Source: Bdellovibrionota bacterium (GTDB taxonomy: Bacteria > Bdellovibrionota_B > Oligoflexia > Oligoflexales > JAWKNZ01). Taken from it: 64,000 bases of DNA. Made by a program: the position numbers and the translations under genes. Of this stretch, positions 1 through 29,756 are shown in pieces. The stretch lies in contig JAWKNZ010000013.1 in the NCBI GenBank assembly GCA_041391425.1, positions 436 to 64,435 of the forward strand, read 5' to 3'. The notes under the pieces are model-generated. The model worked only from the letters and a program-made list of their open reading frames with translations, searched no databases and had not been told where the DNA came from. Every line of letters begins with the position of its first letter. Position 1 is the first letter of the stretch.

Positions 1-338
1 CGCTGATAATCCCAACTAAAGAGAGCCTTGCTGCTATAACACGGACAGCAAACTTGCAGAATGATGTTCGTTTTGAGTTAAGAAAAGCAAAATTAGCCGA
101 AAGGCTCACAAAATTCTATTTGATGGGCAGAAACTGTTCATTCGAAAAGCTTACTTTTAATGATTTGAGACATTCGTACGTGATACACATGCTCGGGCAA
201 AGCGTTTCACTATCCATCATATCTAAATGGATTGGGGATTCGATCAGCACATGTGAGAAATATTATTCAGGATATGAAATTTCGGATGAGGCAAGTGCAG
301 CAATATACGAAAGGCTAAAGTCAAACGCCTATCAATGA
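1..338 (+). CDS. tyrosine recombinase/integrase, C-terminal part (5' end lies outside the window)
   Basis: The reading frame is open from the window edge. The C-terminal catalytic region has ...NDLRHSYVIHMLG..., ...WIGDS... and a terminal ...EKYYSGY (Tyr). It lies directly beside a tRNA-Leu fragment. Confidence 0.7.
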   Translation, partial: LIIPTKESLAAITRTANLQNDVRFELRKAKLAERLTKFYLMGRNCSFEKLTFNDLRHSYVIHMLGQSVSLSIISKWIGDSISTCEKYYSGYEISDEASAAIYERLKSNAYQ

Positions 339-532
339 GCTTCTAAGTCTTCTTTGAGATAGGCGAGGTATTCAGTTTTCTCTGCTTCGGATAATCCCGC
401 CAAGATCTTCTCATTTGCTCTAACTAATTTTTCAAATGTCATTTCGGGGTAGATTTTTCTTACCTCAGAGAGTTCTACCAAAGCTTGCTTGTAAGCTTCG
501 ATGTGACGAACGTTGTCTTGAGGTTTTTCCAT
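332..532 (-). CDS. hypothetical small acidic helical protein (66 aa)
   Basis: ORF only, with no recognisable motif. It sits between the integrase 3' end and the tRNA fragment. Confidence 0.3.
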   Translation of the reverse strand: MEKPQDNVRHIEAYKQALVELSEVRKIYPEMTFEKLVRANEKILAGLSEAEKTEYLAYLKEDLEAH

Positions 533-554
533 ACAAATTTAAGATCTTAAAAGG

Positions 555-618
555 TGGTACCAGTGGCCGGACTCGAACCGGCACATCCTTGCGGACGGTG
601 GATTTTGAATCCACAGCG
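555..618 (-). pseudogene. 3' portion of a tRNA-Leu(CAA): anticodon arm, variable arm, T arm, acceptor 3' strand and CCA. The 5' part is missing.
   Basis: The reverse complement reads CGCTGTGGATTCAAAATCCACCGTCCGCAAGGATGTGCCGGTTCGAGTCCGGCCACTGGTACCA. It has a GTGGA/TCCAC anticodon stem, loop TTCAAAA (anticodon CAA) and a GGTTCGAGTCC T loop. No matching D arm or 5' acceptor strand lies upstream. Confidence 0.75.
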
Positions 619-876
619 TTTACTATGCATGGATCTATTTCTAAGGTGGAATTAGTTGGGGTAACTTATTACAATAATTAACCTTAGAAAGATCAAGCCA
701 ACTAGTAAAATCAATCGCAAGCAAAATTTGTTAGCGTTAGACTGACCTTCTGAAAGCCTTGAAAATACGTTGAACGGATCAAGGTTTTGTTACTTATTTG
801 TTACTCTAATATATTTCTTTTCTTTGTTACTTTTAATGGAGTAACAAATAAAAGTTTTTTAGGAAGTGACTTTTAT

Positions 877-1641
877 TTACGTCGAAAGTTTCAAGGTTTT
901 CAACCACAAGTTTATAGCATTAAAGACTGCTTCCAAGTCACTAGGGATATCTTTATACATTTTGGAATGCCTGATCCAAGGGCCATTTAGATTATCAACC
1001 CATTCGATATCAAGAGTGTATGGAATCTTTCTTTCATCCATTAACTTTGCGAGGATTTTCATATCAATCGAAAAGCTCGATTTGGCAATTCGCCAAAGAT
1101 CATCAAAATCTTTCATTCTTGTATTTCCAGCTTTAAATCGATGGGCTGCCTGGACTTTATCAGCTACGATATTTTCAATACTGGCTGATATATAAAGTTC
1201 ACCGCTGATAGTCGACCTAACCTTAGCAATGTTTGTTGGCAATGCATATACGATATCCAAGGAAAATTGATTCACTTGTCCTGCTGCTGTTTTGTAGCCA
1301 ATCACAACCGCCGCTGCAGAATATGTCGCATTATCAATTTCTTTGAACTCTATAATATTGAAATCTATTTCGGAGTGGTAGTTGCCGACTTGATCAAGTG
1401 CTTTCCTGACAGTCTCATGGGATGTCATTTTGGCTGTGACTAAATCCAGGTCAATTGTTTGCCTTGGTGTTCTGATATAGTGCCAAAGAAGATTGCCACC
1501 CTTGAAAATAAAGTCATCCGATAGGGCCGATAAAGCATCTAAAAATTTCAGCATCATAAATCTTGAAAATGCTTGCCTACCGTGCTGTCCATTCTCTCTT
1601 TTCCAATTGTTGAACTGCTTATTTAGCGAAATAGCTACCAT
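877..1641 (-). CDS. AbiEii/AbiGii-family nucleotidyltransferase toxin (type IV TA / abortive infection)
   Basis: 254 aa. The N-terminal ...FIFKGGNLLWHYIRTPRQTIDLDLV... matches the KGG...R.T.D.D signature of the DUF1814/AbiEii family. It is separated by 1 nt from the upstream AbiEi-like gene. Confidence 0.8.
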   Translation of the reverse strand: MVAISLNKQFNNWKRENGQHGRQAFSRFMMLKFLDALSALSDDFIFKGGNLLWHYIRTPRQTIDLDLVTAKMTSHETVRKALDQVGNYHSEIDFNIIEFKEIDNATYSAAAVVIGYKTAAGQVNQFSLDIVYALPTNIAKVRSTISGELYISASIENIVADKVQAAHRFKAGNTRMKDFDDLWRIAKSSFSIDMKILAKLMDERKIPYTLDIEWVDNLNGPWIRHSKMYKDIPSDLEAVFNAINLWLKTLKLST

Positions 1642-1642
1642 T

Positions 1643-2245
1643 TCAGATCTCCATTTGAAGCAGATTCAAAATTTCTTGTCCCATCTTTTTATTTATCTTC
1701 AAAATTAAGTTAAATTGTTTTCCCGGATTTTCCCTATCTAAATAGAATTCAGCGAATTTTCTAATGGCGTAGAAATAGGAGTCCAAACCCTTATAGTATC
1801 TATATGCCTCAAACAGGGTTCTTTCCGGAGAGTAAACTCGTATGTCAAACGGTATTCCCTTACTTTCAAAACTTCTTTCTTCAACATTTGTTATCTTCCT
1901 GGGAACAACTCTGTGCACATTCATCAGGTCGTTTTTAAGGTTCATAGAATTAGGGATATCAACGTCGATTTTGTTGATGTAATCCAGGCCCAAATCGTAC
2001 AATGATAGGACCGTTGGTCCTGACACGACACACTGGGGATAGTAATGTTTTACAATCGCAAAATAGGCGGTTCCCTCATCAACGGTCGGTAAACAAAAAT
2101 ATCCCATGCCGTCAGGTGAGACTTTTTGTAACTCTCCTTTATCGACCAACCTGTAAACACCAGTCTTGTGACCCACGATCTCGACTAGCTCAGGGAGGCT
2201 TATCACGTGTCTAGCTTTTAATAGATTTGAAATCCTTTTATCCAT
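1643..2245 (-). CDS. AbiEi-family antitoxin/transcriptional regulator
   Basis: 200 aa. It has an N-terminal winged-helix-like segment ...ISLPELVEIVGHKTGVYRLVDKGELQKV...GYFCLP typical of AbiEi. It lies immediately upstream of the AbiEii gene. Confidence 0.7.
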   Translation of the reverse strand: MDKRISNLLKARHVISLPELVEIVGHKTGVYRLVDKGELQKVSPDGMGYFCLPTVDEGTAYFAIVKHYYPQCVVSGPTVLSLYDLGLDYINKIDVDIPNSMNLKNDLMNVHRVVPRKITNVEERSFESKGIPFDIRVYSPERTLFEAYRYYKGLDSYFYAIRKFAEFYLDRENPGKQFNLILKINKKMGQEILNLLQMEI

Positions 2246-2246
2246 G

Positions 2247-2288
2247 TTGCTATTTTGTCATAAAATATCAATTTTGTCAAAATAGCAA
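2247..2288. promoter_or_regulatory. inverted repeat (candidate AbiEi operator) abutting the abiEi start codon
   Basis: TTGCTATTTTGTCA (2247-2260) and TGTCAAAATAGCAA (2275-2288) are reverse complements at 13 of 14 positions. The repeat is located 2-43 nt upstream of the minus-strand ATG at 2245. Confidence 0.4.
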
Positions 2289-2766
2289 CAAGTAGCTTGT
2301 GTGCTATAGAAAGATATAATTTATTAAAAATATTACAATTTATTCTGCGGACTTGGCCATAGAGTCCAACAATTCAACTATAGTGAATTTAATACGCTAT
2401 TTCTCAGCATTATATGCTAGCAATTTAGAGGCAATTGTTCTTCACGGTGCTACGGGTAGCAAAAAATCGTAAAATTGCCAATCAACAACATCTAGAAATA
2501 GTTCTGGAATCTTAATAGATTCGAGTTTTTGAACATTACTGCATACCTTGTTTTGGAACTGAGTTGACCTACAAAATAAACTTTGTCTTTATCAGGATTA
2601 TTATAATAAGGGCAGAGTTCATCACTCTATCGACGGCAAAATGCCAGCACAGATGGCTGGTGAAATGAATGTTCCGATAGTGAAGTTGCAAAATTATAAG
2701 TTTCAATCTTATTGTCTTGGCGCCTTTAAAATACCAATTGCGATATAAATATCAATTCGCACCCAA

Positions 2767-4281
2767 GGTACATTCCAATACAATCTGGACTTTTTGATTT
2801 GTGTTAACGAATTCTACTGATACGGTTTAGGTGTAGAGTTTAAAGTAAAAGTTTGATGTCAATTTATGTCGCACAAAGAGGCATTGGAATTCTGCTACGA
2901 CAAGCATTTGTTACAATTGAGGGATTGATGAAAACTGATACGATTCTTAATTGCTGCTCTTGATTTTTCCTTGAGTTCTGCAGCTATTTCTTCACTCCAT
3001 AGTCCGCGGTACATTTCTTCTGGCGTAGCTCCTTTAAATGCTGAATGTGGCATTTTAGAATTTTGCTCAGAATAGTAAAAATCAGTGAGCTGTCTGACAG
3101 TATTGATATTTTGCAGAGGAACATTATAGAGGCAGTTGTATTTTAGGCTCCTAAAATTTGCCTCTATGATAGAATTAGAGAATTTTACATCGATTTGAGC
3201 ATTGGTTAAAGTCAGTTTTCCTAGGTTAACAAGCTTAGATACAAATTGATTGAAATTTTCACTACCGCCATCCACAAAGACCTCAGGCAGTATCTTTGGG
3301 TTTGAGTTGCTTGCCTTTTCCAAAGCCTCAAGAAGAAGATCTTTTGTTTGGCATCCAGTTTTGTGCTCACTTACTTTCCAAGCAATGGTGTATCGTGAAT
3401 AATTGTCGACGACACTTTGTACATATGCTTTGCCACCTTCAAGTAGATTGACCTCAGTGACGTCGACATGCCAAATTTCGTTTGGAGCGTTTGCTCGTAC
3501 TCCTATTTTAGGTTTTGTTGGATAAACCCTTCTTCTAGGTCGTTTCCACCCATGTCGCTTAACCATTCTGGACCAAGTCGAGGGAGAACATATTAGTTGG
3601 CCAGAACGTTTAATTTTCTTTGCTAGTGTAGTTAAGGGATAGTGTGCGTAGTCTGCTGAAGTAACAAAATCTTTCATTTTGGTAAGTTCAGCTGCAGTGA
3701 GTTTCATTGGATTAAATTTAGGACACGTTTTGTAATCATTTAGATTACATGACAGATCTCTCTTGACCCAACTATGATAACGGCTTGATGATAGAGAAAT
3801 TGTGGCCAAAGATTTCTTAAGCCCAGTTATGCTTGCTGTTTTCTTTATCATTTTGAGTACCAGTTCTTTGTCTGCGGCGCTCGGTAAACGCTGCCACTTG
3901 ATGGAAAATCCGAAGATATCATTGATAGACTTGTAAAGCTCAAGGAGAGCAGTCAGTTGCTTACATTCAAGCTGAAGTTTATTGATGTCTTTGATAAGTT
4001 CAGTCTTACTGACGTCGAGGTTTTCAAAAGTAACAACTTTTCGTGGTTTATTTTTGGTCCATGCAGCAGCAGTCGACACAGGGACACCAAATCCCTTTAT
4101 GAGTTGATAGGGATCAGTGCTAGCGAATGCTAGCTCTTTTAATCTATGATCGTACAAAGTTTTCATAATTTATAGAGTCGCAAATGAAAGGAAAAAACCT
4201 TAGCTTCCATCTGATAATCTTGTTGTTCTGGTAGGTTACGGATAACCGAAGTTAAAAGTCCAGATTGTTTTGGAATGTACC
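2767..4281 (-). mobile_element. insertion sequence with a single rve-type DDE transposase (IS481/IS3-superfamily-like), about 1515 bp
   Basis: Terminal inverted repeats are GGTACATTCCAATACAATCTGGACTTTT (2767-2794) and, reverse-complemented, 4254-4281 GGTACATTCCAAAACAATCTGGACTTTT (27/28 identical). They enclose the transposase ORF. Confidence 0.8.
2895..4166 (-). CDS. DDE transposase (integrase-core/rve domain)
   Basis: 423 aa. The DDE triad context is ...IWHVDVTEV..., ...VFVDGGSENFN..., ...IEANFRSLKYN..., and DNYSRYTIAW is typical of rve-domain transposases. Confidence 0.85.
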   Translation of the reverse strand: MKTLYDHRLKELAFASTDPYQLIKGFGVPVSTAAAWTKNKPRKVVTFENLDVSKTELIKDINKLQLECKQLTALLELYKSINDIFGFSIKWQRLPSAADKELVLKMIKKTASITGLKKSLATISLSSSRYHSWVKRDLSCNLNDYKTCPKFNPMKLTAAELTKMKDFVTSADYAHYPLTTLAKKIKRSGQLICSPSTWSRMVKRHGWKRPRRRVYPTKPKIGVRANAPNEIWHVDVTEVNLLEGGKAYVQSVVDNYSRYTIAWKVSEHKTGCQTKDLLLEALEKASNSNPKILPEVFVDGGSENFNQFVSKLVNLGKLTLTNAQIDVKFSNSIIEANFRSLKYNCLYNVPLQNINTVRQLTDFYYSEQNSKMPHSAFKGATPEEMYRGLWSEEIAAELKEKSRAAIKNRISFHQSLNCNKCLS

Positions 4282-4464
4282 TTTGCTCCATTTACGCGTC
4301 ATGATATGAGGCGTGGCTTCAACTTAGCAGCCAAGGAAGCAGGTATGTCTTTGGACGATCGTGCCTTGATTCTTGGTCATGGTAGGGAAGTCAACGAAGC
4401 TCATTATTGTGGCAAGCCTCAATTGGATGCGGATAAAATTTCGGAGATTTTAAATGCGATGTGA
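4282..4464 (+). pseudogene. tyrosine integrase C-terminal remnant, truncated at its 5' side by the IS
   Basis: ...FTRHDMRRGFNLAAKEAGMSLDDRALILGHGREVNEAHY... carries the R, H-x-x-R, LGH and Tyr elements. The frame starts exactly at the IS right end, and no N-terminal ORF of 60 aa or more exists left of the IS (2250-2766). Confidence 0.7.
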
Positions 4465-4485: not shown

Positions 4486-4572
4486 TGGTGCCTCCGGTGA
4501 GAATCGAACTCACACTCCGTTGCCAGAACCGGATTTTGAATCCGGCGCGTCTACCAATTCCGCCACAGAGGC
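4486..4572 (-). tRNA. tRNA-Leu(CAA), intact, CCA encoded
   Basis: The reverse complement is GCCTCTGTGGCGGAATTGGTAGACGCGCCGGATTCAAAATCCGGTTCTGGCAACGGAGTGTGAGTTCGATTCTCACCGGAGGCACCA. The acceptor stem is GCCTCTG/CGGAGGC, the anticodon loop is TTCAAAA, and there is a long variable arm and a GTTCGATTC T loop. Confidence 0.9.
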
Positions 4573-4700: not shown

Positions 4701-4740
4701 ATTTTGAATCCACTGCGTCTACCGATTTCGCCACCTCGGC
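4701..4740 (-). pseudogene. 5' half of a second tRNA-Leu(CAA), ending inside the anticodon loop
   Basis: The reverse complement is GCCGAGGTGGCGAAATCGGTAGACGCAGTGGATTCAAAAT (acceptor 5' strand, D arm, anticodon stem 5' strand and loop). The sequence after CAAAAT is unrelated to a tRNA. Confidence 0.75.
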
Positions 4741-5062
4741 TTAGTTGTACATATCATGCACTGTGGCAGTAGCTTATAACCATGCGTCTCTTCCATCAAA
4801 TCTGGAATCTGCCTTTAAGAAACCAAAATAACTACCATATCTGATTAGTCACCCAACCGATTCTGCCTATTTAATGTAACAGGGAAGTTATCGTGGAGAT
4901 CAAAAAATAAGCTACACAATCCATTGTTTTTATTTATAAATTGCTTCCTTGTCAAGAGAAAATAAAATTTGGCGATAGTTGGAATTGCATAGAGGAAATG
5001 TAGAGGAAAAAGAGAGAGCAAGGCCAATACAGCGGACGACGCATTTACAAGGAGATGTGCGT

Positions 5063-5419
5063 ATGGTCACTTCTATGCGGCGGCAAGACCGAAGGGTGCA
5101 GCCAAGGATTGTGACGTTGAATTCAGATGAGATTACAGGGCTTTTAGTGGCTGAATCGAACTTTGAACGCCAACCATTTATTTTATGTGATGTTTCTGAA
5201 ACTGGTATCGGTATATGGACGCCAGAGAAGCTGCCTATGGATAGTTCCATCAAAGTTATTCTGGGAGCTGAGTTTGGTAATATCACCGTAAGTTGCCAAG
5301 TAATGTGGTGTAGTGAAGATCCCGAACGCAAAGGGTTTAACTCTGGCATGTGTGTGAAAGGGGAAGTTCACAGCTATATTTACAAGTACATCAAGGAAAA
5401 ATGTGACCAAGGTGCTTAG
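5063..5419 (+). CDS. PilZ-domain protein (c-di-GMP receptor)
   Basis: It has the RRQDRR (RxxxR) and DVSETGIG (D/NxSxxG) PilZ motifs. The ATG at 5063 is preceded by GGAG at 5051. The ORF track extends the frame to a TTG at 4979. Confidence 0.75.
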   Translation: MVTSMRRQDRRVQPRIVTLNSDEITGLLVAESNFERQPFILCDVSETGIGIWTPEKLPMDSSIKVILGAEFGNITVSCQVMWCSEDPERKGFNSGMCVKGEVHSYIYKYIKEKCDQGA

Positions 5420-5538
5420 TGTGGCATAGGTGTTAGCCCTGCATATTATTCCCTCACAGTGTTTTTGTCTTTAGATTAAAATTTATAATAGCCCCATGTC
5501 TAATTCGATATTTTCAATTTCGTAAAAGGAAATCGATT

Positions 5539-6858
5539 ATGCAGATTGACGTATCATTGCTAGCAAATGCGATGATTTCCAATGAGTTTATCTTGCTATG
5601 GAGTTTATCTATCGTTGCCTACGCTTTCTTCTGGATTTTTAAGATGATTTTCAGATCTAAAGCGCTTATAGGGGAGTTTAAAGGTGCAATGCATTTGCTT
5701 GCTCAACTTAAAATATTGGAAGGTAGTGATAAAAAGTTTAAGAAAAAGTTAGATGTCTTTTTAAAGCTTCCATTAATAGCGCCATTTGCCGATCGGCTAT
5801 TTGTTAGCGATAGGTGTGATAGCCTTATTCTCGACTCACAGGTCATTAGTGCTATAAATGAAGAAAGCATCATTAGCCCAAGGTTGGATAAAAACGCCTA
5901 TCAAAGTATCGGCAGTCATCTAAGTGGTATGGGGGTTTTAGGTACATTTATTGGCCTTTCGGCAAGTATATATTTGGCCCGTAAGGGTCTTATGGGAAGC
6001 AACTTTTTGCAGATGAGAGATTCTTTAGATCAGCTTTTGGGTGGAGCTGCCTTGGCTTTTTGGACATCAATGGTAGGGGTAGGCTGTTCGCTTCTATACA
6101 ATAGAGTGGAAATAGCGGTCTTTAGTACGTTGAGGTATAAGTTACAAACTCTTATTGAAAGCATCGCAACGATAGGCAAGCGTTTTTCGCAGGAAGAGGT
6201 TTCCATAAACCAGTTAAATGCCAATACGAGTCAATTGCGCTATCTTGAACAGATAGCGGGATCATTGGAGGCACTTAACAATAAACAACAAAAAATTCAG
6301 GAAGAAATATTACGTGAAGTAGTCAATGATTTTCGCAATGGATTAGCAGAAGGTGCGCCGCAGGAGATGAAAGCGATAGCCGATAATTGCCTTAGAATCT
6401 TATCATCGATCAAGGCAAATTTAGGTGAGATGCAAGATTCTAATAGTTATTTGGTGGAAACAAGTAAGAAAATTGGCGAGGCTATTGAAGAGCCTTTACA
6501 AAAGGCCGCAGGCGTGTTCCATACAAAAATAATTGATACTATTGAACGAATGGAACGGGCATTGGATGGAGCTACTTCGCAAATCGGCAAAAATATGATG
6601 ACTGAATCTGTAGCTGCAACACAGCAGATACAAGAGCCTATTATACAACTGGGACAAATTGTACATAAGTTAACGGATAAGACTAGGCGTGCGACCGATG
6701 ATTGGACGGATGCTATGATATCTATGGAAAGGCTAGTCAGAATGCTTGACAAAGAGCGCAAGCATTTTGCCAATGGCAATGAAAAAAAAGCCAGCCCTGA
6801 TTTCGAACATCCCGTCATAAATTTCAACCGTGAAAATTTTACAGACGATAAATTTTAA
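5539..6858 (+). CDS. MotA/TolQ/ExbB-family proton-channel protein with a long C-terminal helical tail (ZorA-like architecture)
   Basis: 439 aa. TM1 spans about residues 16-38. The channel motifs are ...SGMGVLGTFIGLSASIYLA... and ...GGAALAFWTSMVGVGCSLLYNRVE.... A roughly 245-aa charged, Q/E/K-rich tail follows. AAAGGA lies before the ATG. Confidence 0.7.
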   Translation: MQIDVSLLANAMISNEFILLWSLSIVAYAFFWIFKMIFRSKALIGEFKGAMHLLAQLKILEGSDKKFKKKLDVFLKLPLIAPFADRLFVSDRCDSLILDSQVISAINEESIISPRLDKNAYQSIGSHLSGMGVLGTFIGLSASIYLARKGLMGSNFLQMRDSLDQLLGGAALAFWTSMVGVGCSLLYNRVEIAVFSTLRYKLQTLIESIATIGKRFSQEEVSINQLNANTSQLRYLEQIAGSLEALNNKQQKIQEEILREVVNDFRNGLAEGAPQEMKAIADNCLRILSSIKANLGEMQDSNSYLVETSKKIGEAIEEPLQKAAGVFHTKIIDTIERMERALDGATSQIGKNMMTESVAATQQIQEPIIQLGQIVHKLTDKTRRATDDWTDAMISMERLVRMLDKERKHFANGNEKKASPDFEHPVINFNRENFTDDKF

Positions 6859-6898
6859 TGTTTTAAGCTGTTTTTAGATTTTTAGAATATGGGCAATC

Positions 6899-7717
6899 AT
6901 GCGTAATCATAACTATGAAAAAAAACAAAATTTATGGATGTCTTTATGCGATATTTTAGCAGCCATGATTTTTGTTTTTCTAATTGTTTTAGCAGTGTTT
7001 TGTATTCAGTATGAAAGTGATCAAGCTCATTTTAAGAATACTAAAGAAATCTTACAAAGTTCCATGAACACCCGGAAAGAAATTTTAACTAAACTGCAAG
7101 AAGCGTTGCGATCTTACGGGTTGAACTCGGAAGTCATTTTACAGGCCGGAATTCTCAGGCTTAATAATGAAATTATTTCATTCCCTGCATCTGAAGCAAA
7201 TCCTAATACAATCAACCTTCAGAATATTGGTGTGTTGTCCAAAATTATGTCAGAAGTCCTTCCTTGCTATGCGAAGCAAAAGCCTGCTGTTTTAACCACT
7301 GAGGAGTTGCCAATATGGTGTGATGTGGGCTTAAAAAATATTGGAGCATCAGTTTCTGTAAATAACTGTTCAAATACCCGTAGCGTAAATATTGAAACCA
7401 TTATGATAGAAGGGCATACCGATCCAACACCTGTTAAAAAAACAGCATCATATCCTGATAACTTCGCTTTGTCGGCGATGAGAGCTTCAAATATTTGGAA
7501 ACTATTAAAGGCTTGCCAGCCGAATTTAGCTGAACTTTATAATGAAAATAACAATAAGATCTTTGGAGTGAGTGGCTATGCATATCTGCGCCCGGCACAA
7601 AAAAATCCGAACGATCCCCGAAATAGGCGTATTGATGTGCGCTTTGTTATGGAGCAACCCAAAGAAGCCTTTATAAATCTTTCGAAACGTCTGTTAGGAC
7701 CGCATCAGCAATTTTAG
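6899..7717 (+). CDS. MotB/OmpA-family protein (ZorB-like): N-terminal TM with conserved Asp plus C-terminal OmpA-like peptidoglycan-binding domain
   Basis: The TM segment ...LWMSLCDILAAMIFVFLIVL... carries an Asp at a MotB-like position. The C terminus reads ...IEGHTDPTP...NFALSAMRASNIWKLL...NRRIDVRFVM. Confidence 0.75.
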   Translation: MRNHNYEKKQNLWMSLCDILAAMIFVFLIVLAVFCIQYESDQAHFKNTKEILQSSMNTRKEILTKLQEALRSYGLNSEVILQAGILRLNNEIISFPASEANPNTINLQNIGVLSKIMSEVLPCYAKQKPAVLTTEELPIWCDVGLKNIGASVSVNNCSNTRSVNIETIMIEGHTDPTPVKKTASYPDNFALSAMRASNIWKLLKACQPNLAELYNENNNKIFGVSGYAYLRPAQKNPNDPRNRRIDVRFVMEQPKEAFINLSKRLLGPHQQF

Positions 7718-8840
7718 CTTGTCCATTGACCGTTAAGTGAAAGCAATCACCGGCAATGTCTTCTGGATCAAAGTATATTTTTTCAGTAGCATCGATATAA
7801 CGAAATTGGATATTCGATTTATCTTGTATGGCTATATTTTTATTCATTTCATCTACTACTTCTTTTGCAATTTCTCTATATTTACGAATTCTATTTGCCA
7901 AAAAATTGATGTGCTCTTTGACCACAGAAGGTGGAGAAAATAATGTTGGGCACATCCGAGCGGGGTTTGGAGGCATGATTTGAGAGAAGAGCTGCATATC
8001 AAGCGATAATGAAGTGCTGTCACTCTGATTTTCTAAATTTGGTAAATACCCTTGCTCTCTCAATTTGCGGCAGGTTGTATTTTTGCCAAATGCGCGGATT
8101 TGTTTTTCTAGTATTTTTTCCTGCCCAAGCAGTTGTAGTATTCCTAAAAAGCCAACCACAGATACTTCCGCGCCATCTATAGGTGGATTGCCATTTGTTG
8201 AGATATAATTTAACCCCGCATAGAGCGCGTTTCGATAATCTTCTTCACTTGTCGTTAGCTCAGGTGTTGGCGCGCATAGGTCGTTGCCTGTGTAAAATAT
8301 CATGATTTTGTTCGGTAAGTTTCCATCTAAGTAGTCCAGAACGCGATCCATTTGTCTAGAGATGGATGTGATGCGAGCACCATTTTCGGCTGCGATATAA
8401 ATACGTTCAGGGGCAACTCCAATGGAGCGGCCCAATAAATACCCCCAACTATATTGTTCAACATTTAGATAGCGCTCGGAAATAAACTGTATTGTATTAA
8501 AAACCAGCCAGTCTAAAGCTCCACTATATTCACGAATATTTTTTTTCAGTAAAATTGGAGGTTTTGGGTCTTCGTTGATTTGGTATTTCTTTAACAATTT
8601 TTGAGAGCTATTTGGTTTGATAGATGTTTTGTTATTAAATATATTCCACATGACAGCTGGATCAAATACCATCGCCGGGTGGGTGGCAGCTCCTGTAGCT
8701 AAGCTGTCTCCTAGTATAGCAATGCTTTTTCTGTCTTTTGAGTTTGCTGTTTCGTTTGCACTGAGTGATTGAGTATAGGCGAAGATTAAAATATATAGAA
8801 TCGTGATTACCTGAGTGTGTTTTTTAAAGAGAGTATTCAT
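7671..8840 (-). CDS. secreted SGNH/GDSL-family hydrolase
   Basis: It has a signal peptide, block I ...IAILGDSLATGAA..., ...FYTGNDLC..., and C-terminal ...GDCFHLT (DxxH). Its 3' end overlaps the convergent gene at 6899-7717 by 47 nt. Confidence 0.7.
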   Translation of the reverse strand: MNTLFKKHTQVITILYILIFAYTQSLSANETANSKDRKSIAILGDSLATGAATHPAMVFDPAVMWNIFNNKTSIKPNSSQKLLKKYQINEDPKPPILLKKNIREYSGALDWLVFNTIQFISERYLNVEQYSWGYLLGRSIGVAPERIYIAAENGARITSISRQMDRVLDYLDGNLPNKIMIFYTGNDLCAPTPELTTSEEDYRNALYAGLNYISTNGNPPIDGAEVSVVGFLGILQLLGQEKILEKQIRAFGKNTTCRKLREQGYLPNLENQSDSTSLSLDMQLFSQIMPPNPARMCPTLFSPPSVVKEHINFLANRIRKYREIAKEVVDEMNKNIAIQDKSNIQFRYIDATEKIYFDPEDIAGDCFHLTVNGQAKIADAVLTDVSKDL

Positions 8841-11218: not shown

Positions 11219-12973
11219 TTAAGCGACATGCAATCCCGAATTTGTTTCTAATAACTTTGCTTTTTTTATTTCATGGATAGACTGAGGTTTGTGGAATAAG
11301 AACCCTTGAACTAGGTCGACGCCAAGTTTCATTAAAATGTCAAATTCTTCCCAACGCTCAATGCCTTCTCCCAAAATAAGTGATTTGGATATTTTTGTTG
11401 CCTTAATTAATCCTTCGACAAATGCTTTTTTTGAAGGGTCTTTATCAATGCCGTCAACTAGGCTACGGTCTAATTTTATGATGTCTGGCTTGATTTTTAA
11501 TATTCTATCTAAGCTGGCGTAACCTTTTCCAAAATCATCAGCGGCAATGCCGAACTTTAGCTCTTTTAATTGCTCACGAACGCGTAATAACAATTCGAAA
11601 TTATTTATGTCTTCAGTTTCGGATAGCTCGAAAGTGACTTTACTGCCTTTTTGGAAGATCTTACGTAGAAAGCCTATGTGATAGATATTGCGTGGAAGAA
11701 CATTGACCATTAAGTGAAAGGGAAAGCCATCAAACTCTTTAGCTGCCATTTTTAAACATGATTGGTCAAGCTCTAACGAGAGTTTGCACGAAGCTGCTAG
11801 TGAAAATAACACATCAGGCCTAAGGTACTTGGGATTTAGATGCATTTGATTTTCTTGTGGGCCAAAAACTCTTTCCGCTTGTTTTTGCCGTACCCGAATC
11901 AATGACTCAAAGGCAAATATTTGGCTTTTTAATGGTCTTATATCCTTTCCACCGTCGCAACCTTCTACGGTTTCTCGTCTTATATCTTTGGCGTAAAAAA
12001 TTCCTTGATAATTTGGATATAAAAGGCCATCAGTTCTAATTAATGTCTGCAGCATTTGCTGTTGTGTAGATTCGATGCGTACCAGTTGGACTGTGGCCAT
12101 TTTTCGGCTTTTTTCAAACAAGGTTTCAATGGAGCTATTAATCTCTATGCAAGGATTATATAAGAGAGTCGAATGTCCTACAGAAAAATTAGGAACAGTG
12201 TCCAAGCAAGGTGGCAGCATTTTATTTTTTTTCGGTGCAGAGATTTCTTCCCATAATTTGTTTTGAATTTTTGAAACCAGGCGATCTGTTAGTCTTTCTA
12301 ACGCTCCAGGCATTGGGATTTGTGAGGAACCACGGGCTTTTTCCAGAAAGATATAATAGATGTCGCTATCAGTAGATTTTCTGCATAAGATATCTCGGTT
12401 ACGAAAATGTCCGGGGCTTCCCCACGCCTCGTACAATAATTTTTGAAAACAGGTTTGTAACTGTAAGTGTACTTCGCTTCCATATTTCATAGCCACACTT
12501 CTGAATTTCGAGGCGTCTATGGTTAGCATGCTAAGAGCGCCAATGGTTTTTAACATGCTAATGGGAATTTGTTCGTTGAGGATAGGAACGAGTTCTTTGC
12601 TAACTAACTTGCCCCCTCCTACAATAGCGCCGCATGAAATCAACGCATCGATTAAGTCATTATGAGTTGGATGGATGAGCCAGCGAACCCTATCGGCTCT
12701 GTGAAAATGGTCTCTGTGTGATGCTTTATTATTCTTGGATATGATGATCACAGGAATTCTGCGCCCTAGGTTATTGAGTAAATCTATCCATGCTTCTGGA
12801 TGAAAATGGCTATGGCGTTCATCTGCTACCACGGCTGTGACATTGGGTTTGTAAATTATATCTAAAGCAGATTTGTTCTTTAACGAAAGAAAACGGTGTT
12901 CTATATTGGATAGCTCCAGGCGAGAAGAAATCAATTTTTTAAATTTAACTTCTGATAATAAAAAACAGATCAC
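11219..12973 (-). CDS. EAL-domain c-di-GMP phosphodiesterase with degenerate N-terminal sensor/GGDEF-like region
   Basis: C-terminal motifs are ...FESLIRV... (EAL variant ESL), ...FELSETE..., ...DDFGKGYAS..., ...IKLDRSL..., ...GEGIE... and ...QGFLFHKP. The start codon is GTG. Confidence 0.8.
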   Translation of the reverse strand: MICFLLSEVKFKKLISSRLELSNIEHRFLSLKNKSALDIIYKPNVTAVVADERHSHFHPEAWIDLLNNLGRRIPVIIISKNNKASHRDHFHRADRVRWLIHPTHNDLIDALISCGAIVGGGKLVSKELVPILNEQIPISMLKTIGALSMLTIDASKFRSVAMKYGSEVHLQLQTCFQKLLYEAWGSPGHFRNRDILCRKSTDSDIYYIFLEKARGSSQIPMPGALERLTDRLVSKIQNKLWEEISAPKKNKMLPPCLDTVPNFSVGHSTLLYNPCIEINSSIETLFEKSRKMATVQLVRIESTQQQMLQTLIRTDGLLYPNYQGIFYAKDIRRETVEGCDGGKDIRPLKSQIFAFESLIRVRQKQAERVFGPQENQMHLNPKYLRPDVLFSLAASCKLSLELDQSCLKMAAKEFDGFPFHLMVNVLPRNIYHIGFLRKIFQKGSKVTFELSETEDINNFELLLRVREQLKELKFGIAADDFGKGYASLDRILKIKPDIIKLDRSLVDGIDKDPSKKAFVEGLIKATKISKSLILGEGIERWEEFDILMKLGVDLVQGFLFHKPQSIHEIKKAKLLETNSGLHVA

Positions 12974-26162: not shown

Positions 26163-28106
26163 TTACAAGCTTCGGCTAAGAATCAACTTTATTGATGTTG
26201 AGCCTATTTTCAAATTTGGGATAGTAATAATACCGTCTATATCAGCTTTTACTTCACCGCTGGTGTCTCCATAAGACCATTTAATTGTCTCATATGGTAA
26301 TGTGATAAACTTCTTCGTTCTGCGGATCGTTACGTCTGCTACCACTGGTAATGCTCCTATATAACCTTCTCCAACAACAGGCAGATTTTCATCTATCATT
26401 TTAGCTGGAGGATTCGTTCTTATAAAAATTGGCATTTCCAGGTGTATATAATCTTCAATTATGTTATTGCTATCCCAAGATAAAAACCTATTTTTTGCTC
26501 CTCTAAGATCATTAGATATAAATTCACCTGATTGCATGTCATATACAGGCGGCTTATTGTCTAAAGAGCTATTGGAAAATGCAGGGAAGGGTTTATCACG
26601 AGAAAAATATGCTTCCTCTGGTAAGGAGCCTGTCCACCCATCTGGTAACTTTGGATCAGCCACACCATGGCCACCTTGGTCCCAAAAAACTCTATGCCCA
26701 ATTTTATATTTCTGTAATGTTTGTACCCAGCTATTATTAGTAATTGGGCTAGCTGTACTTATATGATGGAATTTAATAGTTTGATCTTGCACACCGTTAT
26801 ACGTTTGAAAAGGGATATTTCTTATCGATTTGTCATCTCTTAAGGCACGTGTTATATCATAGCGATCCCATATATTCATTCCGCCATCATCCAAAAGTTG
26901 CATTGATCTAGGGCCCCAATATTTTTCTAGAGCATACTTATGTCCTTCTTGTGCTAAGCTCATAGAAGTCATACCAACAACAGCACCAACTTCAGCAAGA
27001 TGATAACCATATCTAATTGCGAAGAAAATGGAGCCTGATCCCCCCATTGATGCACCAGATATTTTCACTCGATCTCGATCTACTCCGGGGAATGTTCGTG
27101 TCACCCAATCCAACAAGTGCAGAATACGTCGTTGAGATGTATTTAGTACTATTGTATCGGGTGTTGGTGTATTTGGATATTTTTCATGCTGTCCAGTCCA
27201 CCATCCCACATAAGGTTCTGATGGCCCTATTCCAAATTGGTTACCATTTCCATTTCCATATGTTGGAATGCCTCCACTACCATGAAGAGTAATCGATAGT
27301 GGAAGTTTGTTTGTGATAGAGGCAGCATCAGGAACGATAACATTCATTTCTATTGAGCGGCCTGCTTGCTCAGATGTATCAAGAAAATTATCGGTTATCA
27401 TGTTTACTCGGTAAAGCTTTGCTTTCCAAATTTCCTCAACGCTAATAATGCTTGGATCTGGAGGAGTGATCGTATCTAAAATATCAATCATAATGTTCTT
27501 TTTGTGTGGTTGTCCATTATCAAAAATATTAACATCGACTGAATAAGCTTTACCCCCTTGTGTAAAATCTGGGTTAAGTATTAGTATTTTATTAAATTCA
27601 TCAAATTCACTTCCTGCTGGAAGTCCATCAAAAAATATACGAGAAGTTTCTTTCGCTTTAACTTTGATTACAAGACGTTCTTTCTCTTTTATTGATATTT
27701 TGGGAATGGAGTCGGCTAATAAATCGATTAATGTTGTTGGCTTTTCATCTGTTACCGGTTTTGGAGCAGGTTCTGTTGGAGGATTTTCTTCTGTAACTGG
27801 TGTATCTTCTGTAACTGGTGTATCTTCTGTAACTGGTGTATCTTCTGTAACTGGTTTATCTTCTGTAACTGGTTTATCTTCTGTAACTGGTGTATCTGCA
27901 GTTGTTTGAGAATTATTTTGTTTTGCTTGTGTAATGCTCTGATCCATTATTTGAGAATCAGTTTGAGCCTTTACAGTATCTGCTGTTTTTGGGTTTGTTA
28001 TGTTATCTCCTCTATTATTTATTTCCTCAGAGGAGTTGTAGGAAGAGCACGACAAATAAATAAAGTATAAAAGGCAACCTGCTTTTTTTACATGATTAAG
28101 TGGCAT
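26163..28106 (-). CDS. lipoprotein alpha/beta-hydrolase (esterase) with an N-terminal PVTED(K/T) tandem-repeat linker
   Basis: It has lipobox YLSC, ...SITLHGSGG..., and the nucleophile elbow ...ISGASMGGSG... (GxSxG). Seven consecutive PVTE(D/E)x hexapeptides are present. Confidence 0.7.
   Translation of the reverse strand: MPLNHVKKAGCLLYFIYLSCSSYNSSEEINNRGDNITNPKTADTVKAQTDSQIMDQSITQAKQNNSQTTADTPVTEDKPVTEDKPVTEDTPVTEDTPVTEDTPVTEENPPTEPAPKPVTDEKPTTLIDLLADSIPKISIKEKERLVIKVKAKETSRIFFDGLPAGSEFDEFNKILILNPDFTQGGKAYSVDVNIFDNGQPHKKNIMIDILDTITPPDPSIISVEEIWKAKLYRVNMITDNFLDTSEQAGRSIEMNVIVPDAASITNKLPLSITLHGSGGIPTYGNGNGNQFGIGPSEPYVGWWTGQHEKYPNTPTPDTIVLNTSQRRILHLLDWVTRTFPGVDRDRVKISGASMGGSGSIFFAIRYGYHLAEVGAVVGMTSMSLAQEGHKYALEKYWGPRSMQLLDDGGMNIWDRYDITRALRDDKSIRNIPFQTYNGVQDQTIKFHHISTASPITNNSWVQTLQKYKIGHRVFWDQGGHGVADPKLPDGWTGSLPEEAYFSRDKPFPAFSNSSLDNKPPVYDMQSGEFISNDLRGAKNRFLSWDSNNIIEDYIHLEMPIFIRTNPPAKMIDENLPVVGEGYIGALPVVADVTIRRTKKFITLPYETIKWSYGDTSGEVKADIDGIITIPNLKIGSTSIKLILSRSL
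27787..27897. repeat. 18-bp in-frame tandem repeat (about 6 units) inside the esterase gene
   Basis: The unit TCTTCTGTAACTGGTGTA/TTTA is repeated head to tail and encodes the PVTEDT/PVTEDK units on the minus strand. Confidence 0.85.
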
Positions 28107-28810: not shown

Positions 28811-29734
28811 CTAAGCAGCAGAATTTTTTCCTCCTTTAGCAATTTGATTGTTTATGGCTTGTTCAGCAAGTGCCTCCATTGGATCTTTGTGTTCGTCGAA
28901 TTCAGATACTTCAACCTCAGTGATGCTATTGCCTTCGCTTCTAGTCCATAGAACGTCTAATGAGTTTTCAAATCGGTCGACGATGCTGACGAATAGCTTA
29001 TCTGCAGAAAACAAGGTATTACAGATACTCATTGTAACGGAAAGAATGATTCCTACGATTGATGTGCTCATAGAGAATGAGACTCTTAAAAGAAACTCAT
29101 CCATTACTAACTTTGTTCCTTCAATGTCCTGCAAATCCATTTTTCCTAATTCAGGCAATGCGTTCATAATACCCAGAAAGGTACCAAAGATACCTCCTAC
29201 AATGAATATTCCTGGCAGTATGTTGAGGATGTCATTAAATATGGATGTTGGAAAAACTCCAAAAACTTTGCTGAAGCAAGGGTTGTTTTGAAAAACGATT
29301 TTTGCAATTTCTAAAAGTTTTGGGTGATCTTTTTGGGGTTTAAGGTATTTGATTTGTTTTAAGGTGTCTTTTACTAAAAAAGCGGATCCATGTTGGATGA
29401 GGAATACTCGGTCCATAATTGGTCCAATTGCATCTGGTTTACGCCGCTTCATTATAGCGCGGATTTCAAAAATTTCGTAATAGGTTTTTTCGAGTATTTT
29501 TTTTGTAGTTAGGAAAAAAGATTTTACCGCTACTCCGTGTGTTTCATCGATGAATTTATGTACTCTTTTTTCGAACTCTTTTGCAAACCAAGATTCACGA
29601 GATATCGTATAATAGATTAATATACGCATGGCTATTGCAAAGGCAAAAATGGCTATCATCGTCGGCATAAGAAGATCTGTAGAAAATGAGACGATGAATT
29701 CGACAAAATCTTGTATTAGGCCTTTTTCACTCAT
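28811..29734 (-). CDS. MotA/TolQ/ExbB-family proton-channel protein
   Basis: 307 aa. It has an N-terminal TM, a roughly 130-aa cytoplasmic insert, then ...LPGIFIVGGIFGTFLGIMNALPELG... and ...SFSMSTSIVGIILSVTMSICNTLF.... Confidence 0.7.
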   Translation of the reverse strand: MSEKGLIQDFVEFIVSFSTDLLMPTMIAIFAFAIAMRILIYYTISRESWFAKEFEKRVHKFIDETHGVAVKSFFLTTKKILEKTYYEIFEIRAIMKRRKPDAIGPIMDRVFLIQHGSAFLVKDTLKQIKYLKPQKDHPKLLEIAKIVFQNNPCFSKVFGVFPTSIFNDILNILPGIFIVGGIFGTFLGIMNALPELGKMDLQDIEGTKLVMDEFLLRVSFSMSTSIVGIILSVTMSICNTLFSADKLFVSIVDRFENSLDVLWTRSEGNSITEVEVSEFDEHKDPMEALAEQAINNQIAKGGKNSAA

Positions 29735-29756
29735 AATACTATTCCTTCATAAAGTT

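What the first reader, a model, noticed from the sequence alone, without database searches (positions are those of the whole stretch)
4979..7717. PilZ + ZorA-like (tailed MotA) + ZorB-like (MotB/OmpA) three-gene module next to a tRNA integration hotspot, with no known Zorya effector
Seen in the sequence:
- A co-directional trio starts about 320 nt from the split tRNA-Leu.
- The first gene is a stand-alone PilZ protein with RRQDRR and DVSETGIG motifs.
- The second is a 439-aa MotA/ExbB-family protein. Its channel motifs (GVLGTFIGL; ALAFWTSMVGVGCSLLYN) are followed by a roughly 245-aa charged helical C-terminal tail.
- The third is a 272-aa MotB-like protein with an Asp-bearing TM (SLCDILAAMIF) and an OmpA-type peptidoglycan-binding domain.

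Established knowledge: a MotA homologue with a long cytoplasmic tail plus a MotB homologue is the defining core of the Zorya anti-phage system (ZorA/ZorB). Separately, PilZ proteins such as YcgR act directly on MotA-type stators.

Inference: none of the Zorya effector partners (ZorC/D, E, F/G) is recognisable here. The tail is shorter than I recall for E. coli ZorA. The only extra gene is a c-di-GMP receptor. This could be a minimal or new Zorya-like variant, or a c-di-GMP-gated proton-motive-force transducer for an unknown envelope process.
Basis: partly seen in the sequence, partly recalled or inferred. Interest (0 to 1): 0.75.

Follow-up and report, generated by a model that had tools for sequence, protein, structure and literature searches.

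The report
Effector-less Zorya motor paired with PilZ
This is a rare offshoot of the Zorya type I anti-phage system in uncultured Oligoflexales bacteria: it keeps the membrane proton motor (ZorA/ZorB), has lost the DNA-attacking partners and the tip of the motor's tail, and is always accompanied by a small c-di-GMP receptor protein, so it may link a Zorya-type motor to second-messenger signalling.

Summary
Three co-directional genes encode a stand-alone PilZ (true start probably ATG 5063, 118 aa), a 439-aa ZorA-like protein and a 272-aa ZorB-like protein.

- **Family assignment.** Profile, PDB-sequence and fold comparisons all place A and B with Zorya ZorA/ZorB, not with MotAB or ExbBD/TolQR. 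The motor residues are intact.
- **No effector.** ZorC, ZorD, ZorE, ZorF and ZorG are absent from the whole 64-kb window.
- **Origin.** The pair belongs to a monophyletic Oligoflexales clade nested inside canonical type I ZorB, whose other relatives almost all sit in ZorABCD operons.
- **Two subclades.** One keeps a full-length tail and a conserved ~200-aa mini-ZorC. The other, which includes the window, has lost mini-ZorC and the conserved tail tip, has a new conserved tail-end motif (KTRRATDDWTDA), and has a PilZ gene next to A wherever the upstream DNA is readable (3 of 3 loci).
- **Rarity of PilZ.** That PilZ family has only those three members in 5.8 billion protein clusters.
- **Location.** The locus lies in a conserved syntenic block on the non-island side of the tRNA.

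Best reading: a Zorya-I-derived, peptidoglycan-anchored proton motor whose nuclease arm was replaced by a c-di-GMP/PilZ partner. Its biological role is untested. It is a new variant of a known kind.

The parts
5063..5419 (+). Stand-alone PilZ protein (118 aa from ATG 5063; the mechanical ORF starts at TTG 4979). It carries the c-di-GMP-binding motifs RRQDR (RxxxR) and DVSETG (DxSxxG).
   Evidence: Pfam PilZ 31.1 bits against a cut-off of 22.5. AAGGAG lies 8 nt upstream of the ATG. Orthologues in L002 and L003 keep both motifs. The AF2 model is a beta-barrel plus a C-terminal helix (pLDDT 77), and its best structural matches are the c-di-GMP-bound PilZ domains of YcgR, PP4397, MrkH, PlzD and MotI.
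5539..6858 (+). ZorA-like proton-channel subunit (439 aa). The motor domain covers about residues 1-195 and the helical cytoplasmic tail about residues 196-411, followed by 28 unstructured residues.
   Evidence: It hits only ZorA models (PADLOC ZorA1 56 bits; NCBIfam ZorA_2 56 bits, below that model's cut-off of 100). The best PDB sequence hit is Shewanella type I ZorA 8vvn_C. The Foldseek top six are all ZorA. T136 and S177 align with the E. coli ZorA ion-filter residues T147/S184 and are invariant.
6679..6714 (+). Tail-end motif KTRRATDDWTDA (residues 381-392 of the ZorA-like protein), specific to the short-tail subclade. It is a candidate partner-binding site.
   Evidence: 8 of these 12 positions are invariant in the short-tail A proteins, the densest conservation outside the channel helices. 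The motif is also present in L052 as ATEDWTDA. It is absent as a motif from long-tail and canonical ZorA.
6899..7717 (+). ZorB-like subunit (272 aa): N-terminal TM helix with Asp18, a linker, and a peptidoglycan-binding OmpA-like domain with four invariant Cys.
   Evidence: PADLOC ZorB1 PDLC00610 188.5 bits. The best PDB hit is type I ZorB 8vvn_B at 74 bits, against 27 bits for MotB. D18, C123, C141, C157 and C206 are conserved in the clade. E. coli ZorB has the essential Asp26 and two disulfides in its PG-binding domain (PMC11946911).
4486..4572 (-). Context only: intact tRNA-Leu(CAA) that marks the left boundary. Degraded mobile DNA lies beyond its 3' end (positions below 4486).
   Evidence: ARAGORN; neighbours by Pfam and PADLOC.
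7671..8840 (-). Context only: a convergent secreted GDSL/SGNH hydrolase that overlaps the 3' end of B by 47 nt. It is a syntenic neighbour in many relatives and probably not part of the system.
   Evidence: Pfam Lipase_GDSL. It is adjacent in the window, L001, L002, L004, L005 and L009, displaced in L003, and absent from L010, L011 and L052. It has no PADLOC hit.

Best explanation
The locus is a vertically inherited derivative of a type I Zorya system in Oligoflexales (Bdellovibrionota).

**Shown.** ZorA and ZorB are retained with intact motor, ion-filter, TM-Asp and peptidoglycan-binding features. ZorD and ZorC are gone. The conserved tip of the ZorA tail is deleted, and in E. coli that tip is needed to recruit ZorD. 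A new conserved motif ends the shortened tail. A dedicated single-domain PilZ with intact c-di-GMP-binding motifs is encoded next to zorA in every locus of this subclade where the upstream DNA can be read.

**Inferred mechanism.** ZorA5B2 still works as a peptidoglycan-anchored, proton-driven rotary unit with a ~210-residue helical bundle projecting into the cytoplasm. The PilZ protein, loaded with c-di-GMP, binds the cytoplasmic part of ZorA. The new tail end is the best candidate site. PilZ then takes the place of ZorC/ZorD as the tail-associated partner. It could act as a brake or clutch that sets when the motor may turn, as YcgR, MotI and FlgZ do on MotA-type stators. Alternatively it could be the output that is captured or released when the motor is activated by envelope perturbation.

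**Unknown.** The physiological role is undetermined. It could be residual anti-phage or abortive defence by proton leak, an envelope-stress response, or a lifestyle switch.
For: **Identity**
- A and B match only Zorya models and structures.
- T136/S177 of A and D18 plus four Cys of B are conserved.
- The tail is helical with period-3.67 hydrophobicity, z = 9.2.

**Descent from type I**
- In a tree of 45 ZorB proteins the clade is monophyletic (50/50 bootstraps) and nested among ZorB from ZorABCD operons, with the canonical locus L006 as sister.

**Two subclades**
- The long-tail form has a conserved mini-ZorC that keeps the EH-motif region. PADLOC ZorC1 scores 136-146 bits for the two scanned (L005, L011).
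- The short-tail form has neither ZorC nor the tail tip.

**PilZ linkage**
- PilZ is present in 3 of 3 readable short-tail loci. It is divergently oriented in L002, and the upstream neighbours differ in all three loci.
- It is absent from long-tail loci.
- The PilZ family has only these three members in 5.8 billion clusters.

**Selection**
- ORFs are intact across loci whose A proteins are about 30% identical.
- A subclade-specific invariant motif ends the tail.

**Chromosomal and vertical**
- GC content is native.
- Both subclades share synteny with GDSL, ABC1/UbiB, UvrD, PNP_UDP_1 and YebC.

**Precedents**
- PilZ proteins act on MotA-type stators (YcgR, MotI, FlgZ-MotC, FlgX).
- The stand-alone PilZ MotL is encoded directly after motAB (PMC11725899; PMC8203827).

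**Tail tip**
- In E. coli the tail tip and all four genes are required for defence and for ZorD recruitment (PMC11946911).
Against: - No interaction between PilZ and ZorA was tested, and none could be with these tools. Three co-occurrences is a small sample.
- The PilZ gene is divergently oriented in one locus, so co-transcription is not required.
- NCBIfam ZorA scores are below the curated cut-offs (56 against 100), so A is a divergent member.
- AF2 confidence in the tail is low (pLDDT 30-55), from a monomer model with an 8-sequence alignment.
- ZorC/ZorD or another effector could be encoded outside the 64-kb window.
- MotL, the closest gene-neighbourhood precedent, was not shown to bind MotA or MotB.
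- Conserved synteny could by itself explain some of the adjacency, as it does for the GDSL gene.
Confidence: 0.6

Rival explanations
1. Orphan ZorAB. The PilZ adjacency is incidental synteny, and ZorAB acts alone or with effectors encoded elsewhere in the genome. Acting alone, it could be a minimal abortive system that depolarises the membrane when the envelope is breached.
For: Another neighbour, the GDSL hydrolase, is also conserved next to B without any sign of functional linkage. PilZ is on the opposite strand in L002. Only 64 kb of the genome is visible.
Against: PilZ stays adjacent although its upstream neighbours differ in all three loci and despite an inversion. The PilZ family exists only at these loci. 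Its presence coincides exactly with loss of the tail tip and mini-ZorC. The tail tip needed for ZorD recruitment in E. coli is missing, which makes use of a trans-encoded ZorD unlikely.
Confidence: 0.2
2. Decaying remnant. This would be a Zorya I system in the course of being lost, with A and B no longer functional.
For: Effector genes and part of the tail have been lost stepwise. In E. coli all four genes are needed for defence.
Against: ORFs are intact in at least six divergent short-tail loci and six long-tail loci. The ion-filter T/S, the TM Asp, four Cys and the PG-binding motifs are invariant. A newly conserved tail-end motif is present, and in L003 the A stop overlaps the B start. These features are not expected without purifying selection.
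Confidence: 0.07
3. A flagellar or gliding stator (MotAB/PomAB or AglRS type) controlled by a YcgR-like brake.
For: PilZ proteins classically regulate flagellar stators. B has weak hits to MotB-family NCBIfam models at 23-35 bits.
Against: A has no Pfam MotA_ExbB hit and no MotA among its top 50 structural neighbours. B scores 188 bits to ZorB1, whereas its MotB hits are about 35 bits against cut-offs of 250-300. No flagellar or gliding genes lie nearby in any locus. A has a ZorA-type tail instead of a torque-generating cytoplasmic domain.
Confidence: 0.03
4. A domesticated envelope machine working with the neighbouring secreted GDSL/SGNH hydrolase, for example in peptidoglycan or lipid remodelling, with PilZ as its c-di-GMP input.
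For: The GDSL gene is convergent and overlaps the 3' end of B. It is adjacent in 6 of 12 clade loci across both subclades. It has a signal-peptide-like N-terminus.
Against: The adjacency is lost in L003, L010, L011, L047 and L052. The gene is convergent, not co-transcribed. The same block continues into plain housekeeping genes (UbiB, UvrD, PNP, YebC), so neutral synteny is sufficient to explain it.
Confidence: 0.1

Closest known systems
Zorya type I (ZorABCD), e.g. E. coli NCTC 9026 (PDB 8QYD) and Shewanella sp. ANA-3 (PDB 8VVN)
   Same: ZorA-type channel subunit with ion-filter Thr/Ser and a C-terminal helical tail. ZorB with a TM Asp and a disulfide-containing PG-binding domain. A-then-B gene order. 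The ZorB phylogeny nests this clade inside type I.
   Different: No ZorC and no ZorD. The tail is ~244 aa instead of ~450-500 aa and lacks the conserved tip block. It carries a subclade-specific end motif. A PilZ gene is adjacent. The locus is chromosomal, syntenic and apparently vertically inherited rather than carried on a defence island.
Sister subclade in Oligoflexales MAGs (L005, L008-L011, L047): ZorA-ZorB plus mini-ZorC
   Same: Same chromosomal neighbourhood in L005 and L009. ZorB is 40-43% identical. No ZorD.
   Different: This sister group keeps the full tail with its tip and a conserved 176-220-aa protein equal to the EH-motif third of ZorC. It has no PilZ.
Zorya type II (ZorABE), e.g. 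Sulfuricurvum kujiense ZorAB (PDB 8VVI)
   Same: A short ZorA (378 aa) shows that tails of ~250-280 aa are compatible with a working Zorya.
   Different: Type II uses the ZorE nickase, and no ZorE is present here. Sequence and tree place this pair with type I.
PilZ regulators of MotA-type stators: YcgR, MotI/DgrA, FlgZ, FlgX, and the stand-alone PilZ MotL encoded after motAB
   Same: A PilZ protein encoded beside, or acting on, a 5:2 stator unit. This PilZ is single-domain like MotL, has intact c-di-GMP motifs, and has YcgR's PilZ domain as its best structural match.
   Different: The partner here is a Zorya-type unit, not a flagellar stator. There is no YcgR-N domain. No interaction has been shown.

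Membership tests
Zorya core (ZorAB) | ZorA: MotA/ExbB-superfamily channel subunit that matches ZorA profiles better than those of other 5:2 motors | tested here: met
   21 PADLOC ZorA models are hit (best 56 bits). There is no Pfam MotA_ExbB hit. NCBIfam hits are ZorA families only, though below their curated cut-offs (56 against 100). The Foldseek top six are ZorA, followed by ExbB/TolQ.
Zorya core (ZorAB) | Long C-terminal helical cytoplasmic tail on ZorA | tested here: met
   ~244 residues follow TM3. AF2 predicts helices 156-296, 303-347, 353-376 and 382-411, at low pLDDT. Hydrophobic periodicity of 3.67 has z = 9.2.
Zorya core (ZorAB) | Ion-filter Thr/Ser in ZorA and the essential TM Asp in ZorB | tested here: met
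   T136 and S177 align with EcZorA T147/S184 and are invariant. B has D18 in SLCDILAAMIF (PMC11946911).
Zorya core (ZorAB) | ZorB-type peptidoglycan-binding domain | tested here: met
   PADLOC ZorB1 188.5 bits. 8vvn_B scores 74 bits against 27 bits for MotB. Four Cys are invariant, matching the two disulfides of EcZorB.
Zorya core (ZorAB) | 5:2 stoichiometry and proton-driven rotation | not testable with these tools
   No multimer prediction or experiment was available.
Zorya type I (ZorABCD) | ZorC (EH_Signature protein) encoded after zorB | tested here: not met
   tblastn and PADLOC find no ZorC in the 64-kb window, and B's 3' end overlaps the next gene.
Zorya type I (ZorABCD) | ZorD (SNF2-family helicase/nuclease) | tested here: not met
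   No ZorD is found in the window or in any clade locus.
Zorya type I (ZorABCD) | Conserved C-terminal tail-tip block of ZorA1 | tested here: not met
   The alignment shows that short-tail proteins end ~110-130 residues before the tip block shared by long-tail and canonical ZorA.
Zorya types II and III | ZorE (type II) or ZorF/ZorG (type III) adjacent | tested here: not met
   The PADLOC scan of 43 window ORFs lists no ZorE/F/G among the 25 of 47 matched families that were displayed. The immediate neighbours (PilZ, GDSL) have no PADLOC hit.
Anti-phage defence system (functional membership) | Protects against phage | not testable with these tools
   This needs plaque or liquid infection assays.
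Flagellar stator MotAB/PomAB | MotA/MotB family model matches above cut-off, and a flagellar gene context | tested here: not met
   A has no MotA_ExbB hit. B's MotB-family equivalog hits score 23-35 bits against cut-offs of 250-300. No flagellar genes lie nearby.
ExbBD/TolQR | ExbB/TolQ-type A subunit with an ExbD/TolR-type B subunit | tested here: not met
   ExbB/TolQ rank below all ZorA structures (E of 4e-3 or worse, against 1.5e-5). B has an OmpA/ZorB domain.
PilZ c-di-GMP receptors | PilZ fold with RxxxR and [D/N]xSxxG motifs | tested here: met
   Pfam PilZ scores 31.1 against a cut-off of 22.5. The motifs are RRQDR and DVSETG, and both are kept in the orthologues. The model is a beta-barrel matching c-di-GMP-bound PilZ domains.
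PilZ c-di-GMP receptors | Binds c-di-GMP | not testable with these tools
   This needs ITC, DRaCALA or similar.
YcgR/MotI-type flagellar brakes | N-terminal YcgR (PilZN) domain followed by PilZ | tested here: not met
   The protein is 118 aa with a single domain. Only the PilZ domain of YcgR aligns.

The most novel reading that the evidence does not exclude
A Zorya motor has been repurposed. After losing its nuclease arm and tail tip, an Oligoflexales lineage fixed ZorAB in the chromosome and coupled it to a dedicated PilZ. That would make it the first ZorAB-type rotary sensor that reads or writes c-di-GMP state, turning envelope perturbation into second-messenger signalling or the reverse, instead of recruiting DNA-degrading effectors.
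Probability: 0.3. Interest if true: 0.8.

Novelty: new variant of a known kind. Interest (0 to 1): 0.6.

Why it matters
Zorya is understood as ZorAB sensing envelope breach and its tail recruiting nucleases. What ZorAB can do by itself, and what else its tail can talk to, are open questions.

This clade offers a natural series: full ZorABCD, then ZorAB plus the EH-motif fragment of ZorC, then tip-less ZorAB plus PilZ.
- The series maps which tail segment goes with which partner.
- It gives a compact (2.7 kb) effector-less system for testing whether a Zorya motor alone has a phenotype.
- It points to a possible c-di-GMP input or output for a 5:2 motor outside flagella.

Published Zorya surveys filtered for canonical gene orders (PMC11946911 methods), so variants like this one were excluded by design. 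No paper in the searchable library links Zorya/ZorA with PilZ or c-di-GMP at a locus.

Tried and rejected
- **Out-of-frame PilZ query.** My first tblastn with the window PilZ used start 5064 and was out of frame. I redid it from 5063. The valid L003 PilZ query gave the same answer.
- **Metagenome scans.** The scan with the short-tail ZorA alignment found no confirmed relative. The second scan, with ZorB, added only one clade locus, L047.
- **Rejected structure job.** I redid it with database proteins only, which gave a shallow 8-sequence alignment and a low-confidence tail.
- **Slow script.** The first tree script timed out and I rewrote it.
- **Operon signals.** The promoter/terminator scan gave nothing above shuffled expectation, so it says nothing about operon structure.
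- **Plasmid search.** A search of the plasmid collection for the trio's DNA found no match.
- **Second pair look-up.** The exact-sequence look-up of the second Zor-like B protein found no record.
- **Integrase fragments.** Pfam supports only one of the two ORFs, and weakly: 54-338 gives Phage_integrase at E 0.0046, below the cut-off. ORF 4270-4464 gives nothing. Its HxxR...GH...Y pattern is my reading by eye.
- **GDSL hydrolase as a system component.** I considered and rejected this, because the adjacency is eroded in 5-6 loci, the gene is convergent, and it has no defence-model hit.
- **ExbBD-like motor for the TonB/Plug genes.** These genes lie upstream in L003 but in no other locus, so I rejected this reading too.


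Full report
**1.

Three corrections are needed.
- The PilZ gene most probably starts at ATG 5063 (118 aa). An AAGGAG lies 8 nt upstream, and the two orthologues of 109-110 aa align from that Met.
- The tRNA-Leu(CAA) at 4486-4572 on the minus strand is intact. The "split" is a 42-nt, 81%-identical copy of its 5' half at 4701-4742.
- The mobile DNA lies beyond the 3' end of the tRNA, at positions below 4486. It comprises AbiEii/AbiEi at 877-2245, an rve transposase at 2895-4166, and a weak integrase-like fragment. The trio sits on the opposite side of the tRNA.

**2. What the three proteins are**

*PilZ.*
- It passes the Pfam threshold at 31.1 bits against 22.5.
- It has RRQDR (RxxxR) and DVSETG (DxSxxG).
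- It models as a beta-barrel with a C-terminal helix (pLDDT 77).
- Its best structural neighbours are c-di-GMP-bound PilZ domains of YcgR, PP4397, MrkH, PlzD and MotI.
- It is a single-domain PilZ with no YcgR-N domain.

*The 439-aa A protein.*
- It has no Pfam MotA_ExbB hit at E below 1.
- It matches 21 PADLOC ZorA models, best 56 bits.
- Its NCBIfam hits are ZorA families only, all below their curated cut-offs.
- Its best PDB sequence match is the Shewanella type I ZorA 8VVN (identity of the entry from PMC11890865).
- An AF2 model has a confident motor domain (pLDDT 80-92). The six best Foldseek hits to it are all ZorA structures (E 1.5e-5 to 1.2e-4), followed by ExbB/TolQ from E 4e-3. No MotA appears in the top 50.
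- T136 and S177 align with the E. coli ZorA ion-filter residues T147 and S184, and are invariant among relatives.

*The 272-aa B protein.*
- It scores 188.5 bits to PADLOC ZorB1.
- It scores 74 bits to ZorB of 8VVN against 27 bits to MotB.
- It has Asp18 in its TM helix and four invariant cysteines. These match the essential Asp26 and the two disulfides described for E. coli ZorB.

*The tail of A.*
- About 244 residues follow TM3.
- They are predicted helical to residue 411, at low confidence.
- They show strong hydrophobic periodicity of 3.67 residues, z = 9.2 against shuffles. The last 28 residues show none.

**3. No Zorya effector**

tblastn with ZorC and ZorD from a canonical relative finds nothing in the window. 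A PADLOC scan of 43 window ORFs listed no ZorC/D/E/F/G among the 25 of 47 matched families displayed. The direct neighbours, PilZ and the GDSL hydrolase, have no PADLOC hit. B's 3' end overlaps the next, convergent gene, so there is no room for a decayed ZorC.

**4. Where it comes from**

The A protein has very few relatives: nine hits in 5.8 billion clusters, only three of them above 30% identity. B has a tight group of nine relatives at 42-48% identity, then a gap down to 37% and below. I fetched contexts for these, and scans of genomes and metagenomes added further loci.

*Relatives outside the tight group.* Almost every ZorB relative sits in a ZorA-ZorB-ZorC-ZorD operon, often in mobile surroundings such as L007.

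*The tight group.* It consists only of Oligoflexales/Bdellovibrionota MAGs. In a neighbour-joining tree of 45 ZorB proteins it is monophyletic in 50 of 50 bootstraps and nested within type I diversity, with the canonical ZorABCD locus L006 as its sister.

*Long-tail subclade* (L005, L008-L011, L047; 50/50 bootstraps).
- ZorA is 556-613 aa.
- There is no ZorD.
- A conserved 176-220-aa protein follows ZorB. For the two I scanned (L005, L011) it corresponds to positions ~310-460 of a 462-position ZorC profile (136-146 bits). It keeps the EH-motif region, AEWSHxGKCRFW.

*Short-tail subclade* (window, L001-L004, L052; 47/50 bootstraps).
- ZorA is 439-467 aa.
- There is no ZorC-like gene.

*The tail difference.*
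- The short-tail proteins stop about 110-130 residues before the C-terminal tip block shared by the long-tail subclade and canonical ZorA1.
- They end instead in their own motif, KTRRATDDWTDA. Eight of its twelve positions are invariant.
- An exhaustive profile search of 1.84 billion representatives finds only about five or six tip-less sequences.
- Other short ZorA relatives (P0140, P0152) have deleted the middle of the tail but kept the tip. Loss of the tip is therefore the unusual feature.
- In E. coli, deleting the tail tip abolishes ZorD recruitment, and all four genes are needed for defence.

**5. PilZ goes with the short tail**

- A PilZ orthologue (30-38% identity, both c-di-GMP motifs kept) lies immediately upstream of zorA in all three short-tail loci where upstream DNA is available: the window, L003 and L002.
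- In L002 it is on the opposite strand. The genes further upstream differ in all three loci. The adjacency has therefore survived rearrangement.
- No PilZ is detectable in the long-tail loci.
- A profile search with the three PilZ proteins returns only those three in 5.8 billion clusters. That tool depends on shared 5-residue words, so this is a lower bound.
- PilZ gain, tip loss and mini-ZorC loss therefore all map to the same branch.

**6. Chromosomal and syntenic, not island cargo**

- GC content across the trio (0.34-0.41) matches the flanks.
- The convergent GDSL hydrolase and the ABC1/UbiB kinase follow B in the window, L001, L002 and L004.
- L003, L004 and L005 share UvrD, PNP_UDP_1 and YebC further on.
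- L005 and L009, from the long-tail subclade, have the same GDSL gene after mini-ZorC.
- The ZorAB locus was therefore at this chromosomal position before the two subclades split. Neighbour identities fit vertical descent: PNP is 80% identical between two short-tail loci (L003, L004) and 68% between a short-tail and a long-tail locus (L004, L005).
- I cannot say how many Oligoflexales lack the locus, because only four GTDB species representatives carried it.

**7. Mechanism**

*Shown.* The locus has an intact ZorAB-type motor, a shortened helical tail with a new conserved end, no nuclease arm, and a strictly co-occurring PilZ with canonical c-di-GMP motifs.

*Inferred.* ZorA5B2 still anchors to peptidoglycan and turns on proton flow. 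c-di-GMP-loaded PilZ binds the cytoplasmic part of ZorA, with the new tail end as the best candidate site. PilZ replaces ZorC/ZorD as the partner. It acts either as a brake or clutch, or as the output that the activated motor captures or releases.

*Precedents.* YcgR, MotI and FlgZ act on MotA or MotC. FlgX is a PilZ-family protein bound under MotA (PMC11725899). The stand-alone PilZ MotL is encoded directly after motAB, although no stator binding was shown for it (PMC8203827).

*Not determined.* The cellular purpose cannot be decided from sequence. It could be residual defence by proton leak, an envelope-stress response, or lifestyle control.

**8. Rivals**

- *Incidental PilZ adjacency with an orphan or split ZorAB (0.2).* This is weakened by the exclusivity of the PilZ family and by the missing tail tip.
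- *Decaying remnant (0.07).* This is contradicted by intact ORFs and invariant functional residues across proteins only ~30% identical.
- *Flagellar or gliding stator (0.03).* Profiles, fold and gene context all contradict it.
- *A machine working with the GDSL hydrolase (0.1).* This is possible, but the adjacency is eroded in five to six loci and the gene is convergent.

**9. Novelty**

The parts are known families, and the pair is a divergent member of the Zorya ZorAB core. It fails every defining feature of types I, II and III beyond that core. No paper in the searchable library connects Zorya or ZorA with PilZ or c-di-GMP at a locus. The main published survey selected only canonical gene orders. 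I rate it a new variant of a known kind. It is rare, being found in a handful of uncultured genomes. It is informative because it forms a natural deletion and replacement series for the ZorA tail and its partners.

**10. Side observation**

The window holds a second, differently built Zor-like pair at 28811-31667 on the minus strand.
- The 636-aa B-like protein has a MotB-type TM (SYSDLF), about 400 residues of coiled coil, and a ZorB-like peptidoglycan-binding domain (103 bits).
- It is followed by a 307-aa tail-less A-like protein that matches only ZorA models, weakly.
- Here the long coiled coil sits on the B subunit rather than the A subunit. I did not follow it further.

Noticed in passing
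window 28811-31667 (- strand): A second Zor-like pair with inverted architecture and gene order. The 636-aa MotB-like protein has a TM with Asp (SYSDLF), ~400 aa of coiled coil, and a ZorB-like PG-binding domain (PADLOC ZorB1 103 bits). It is followed by a 307-aa tail-less MotA/ExbB-like protein that hits only ZorA models (20-28 bits). Neither protein has a Pfam hit. The long coiled coil is on the B subunit instead of the A subunit.
   Followed up: partly
L005 2912-3541; L008, L009, L010, L011 and L047 at the equivalent position: The sister subclade encodes a conserved 176-220-aa mini-ZorC directly after zorB. Only the EH-motif third of ZorC remains (AEWSHxGKCRFW, YIQQHYFSAKGLWQKD). There is no ZorD within 10 kb. 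This is a second non-canonical Zorya arrangement.
   Followed up: partly
window 1-4464: Degraded mobile element beyond the 3' end of tRNA-Leu. It holds an AbiEii/AbiEi toxin-antitoxin pair (877-2245), an rve-family transposase (2895-4166), and two short ORFs that look like C-terminal fragments of tyrosine recombinases (54-338 gives a weak Pfam hit; 4270-4464 only by eye).
   Followed up: partly
window 4701-4742: A 42-nt copy, 81% identical, of the 5' half of tRNA-Leu(CAA), 168 nt upstream of the intact gene. A 5'-half remnant is not the usual 3'-end att duplication, and its origin is unexplained.
   Followed up: partly
window 11219-12973 (- strand): A 584-aa protein with a C-terminal EAL (c-di-GMP phosphodiesterase) domain and an unassigned N-terminal half lies 3.5 kb from the PilZ-ZorAB trio. 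This neighbour is not conserved in the related loci.
   Followed up: no
proteins P0140 (445 aa) and P0152 (437 aa): Other short ZorA relatives have deleted the middle of the tail but retain the conserved tip block. This is the natural counterpart of the E. coli tail-middle deletion mutant, and the opposite of the tip loss seen in the window.
   Followed up: partly
window 26163-28106 (- strand): A 647-aa secreted putative esterase has an N-terminal run of near-identical PVTED(K/T) repeats (DKPVTEDKPVTEDTPVTE...). It lies directly downstream of the second Zor-like pair.
   Followed up: no
L003 1103-4181: In one short-tail relative, a TonB-dependent receptor (Plug) and a TonB_C protein lie about 3 kb upstream of PilZ-ZorAB. 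This is not seen in the other loci.
   Followed up: no
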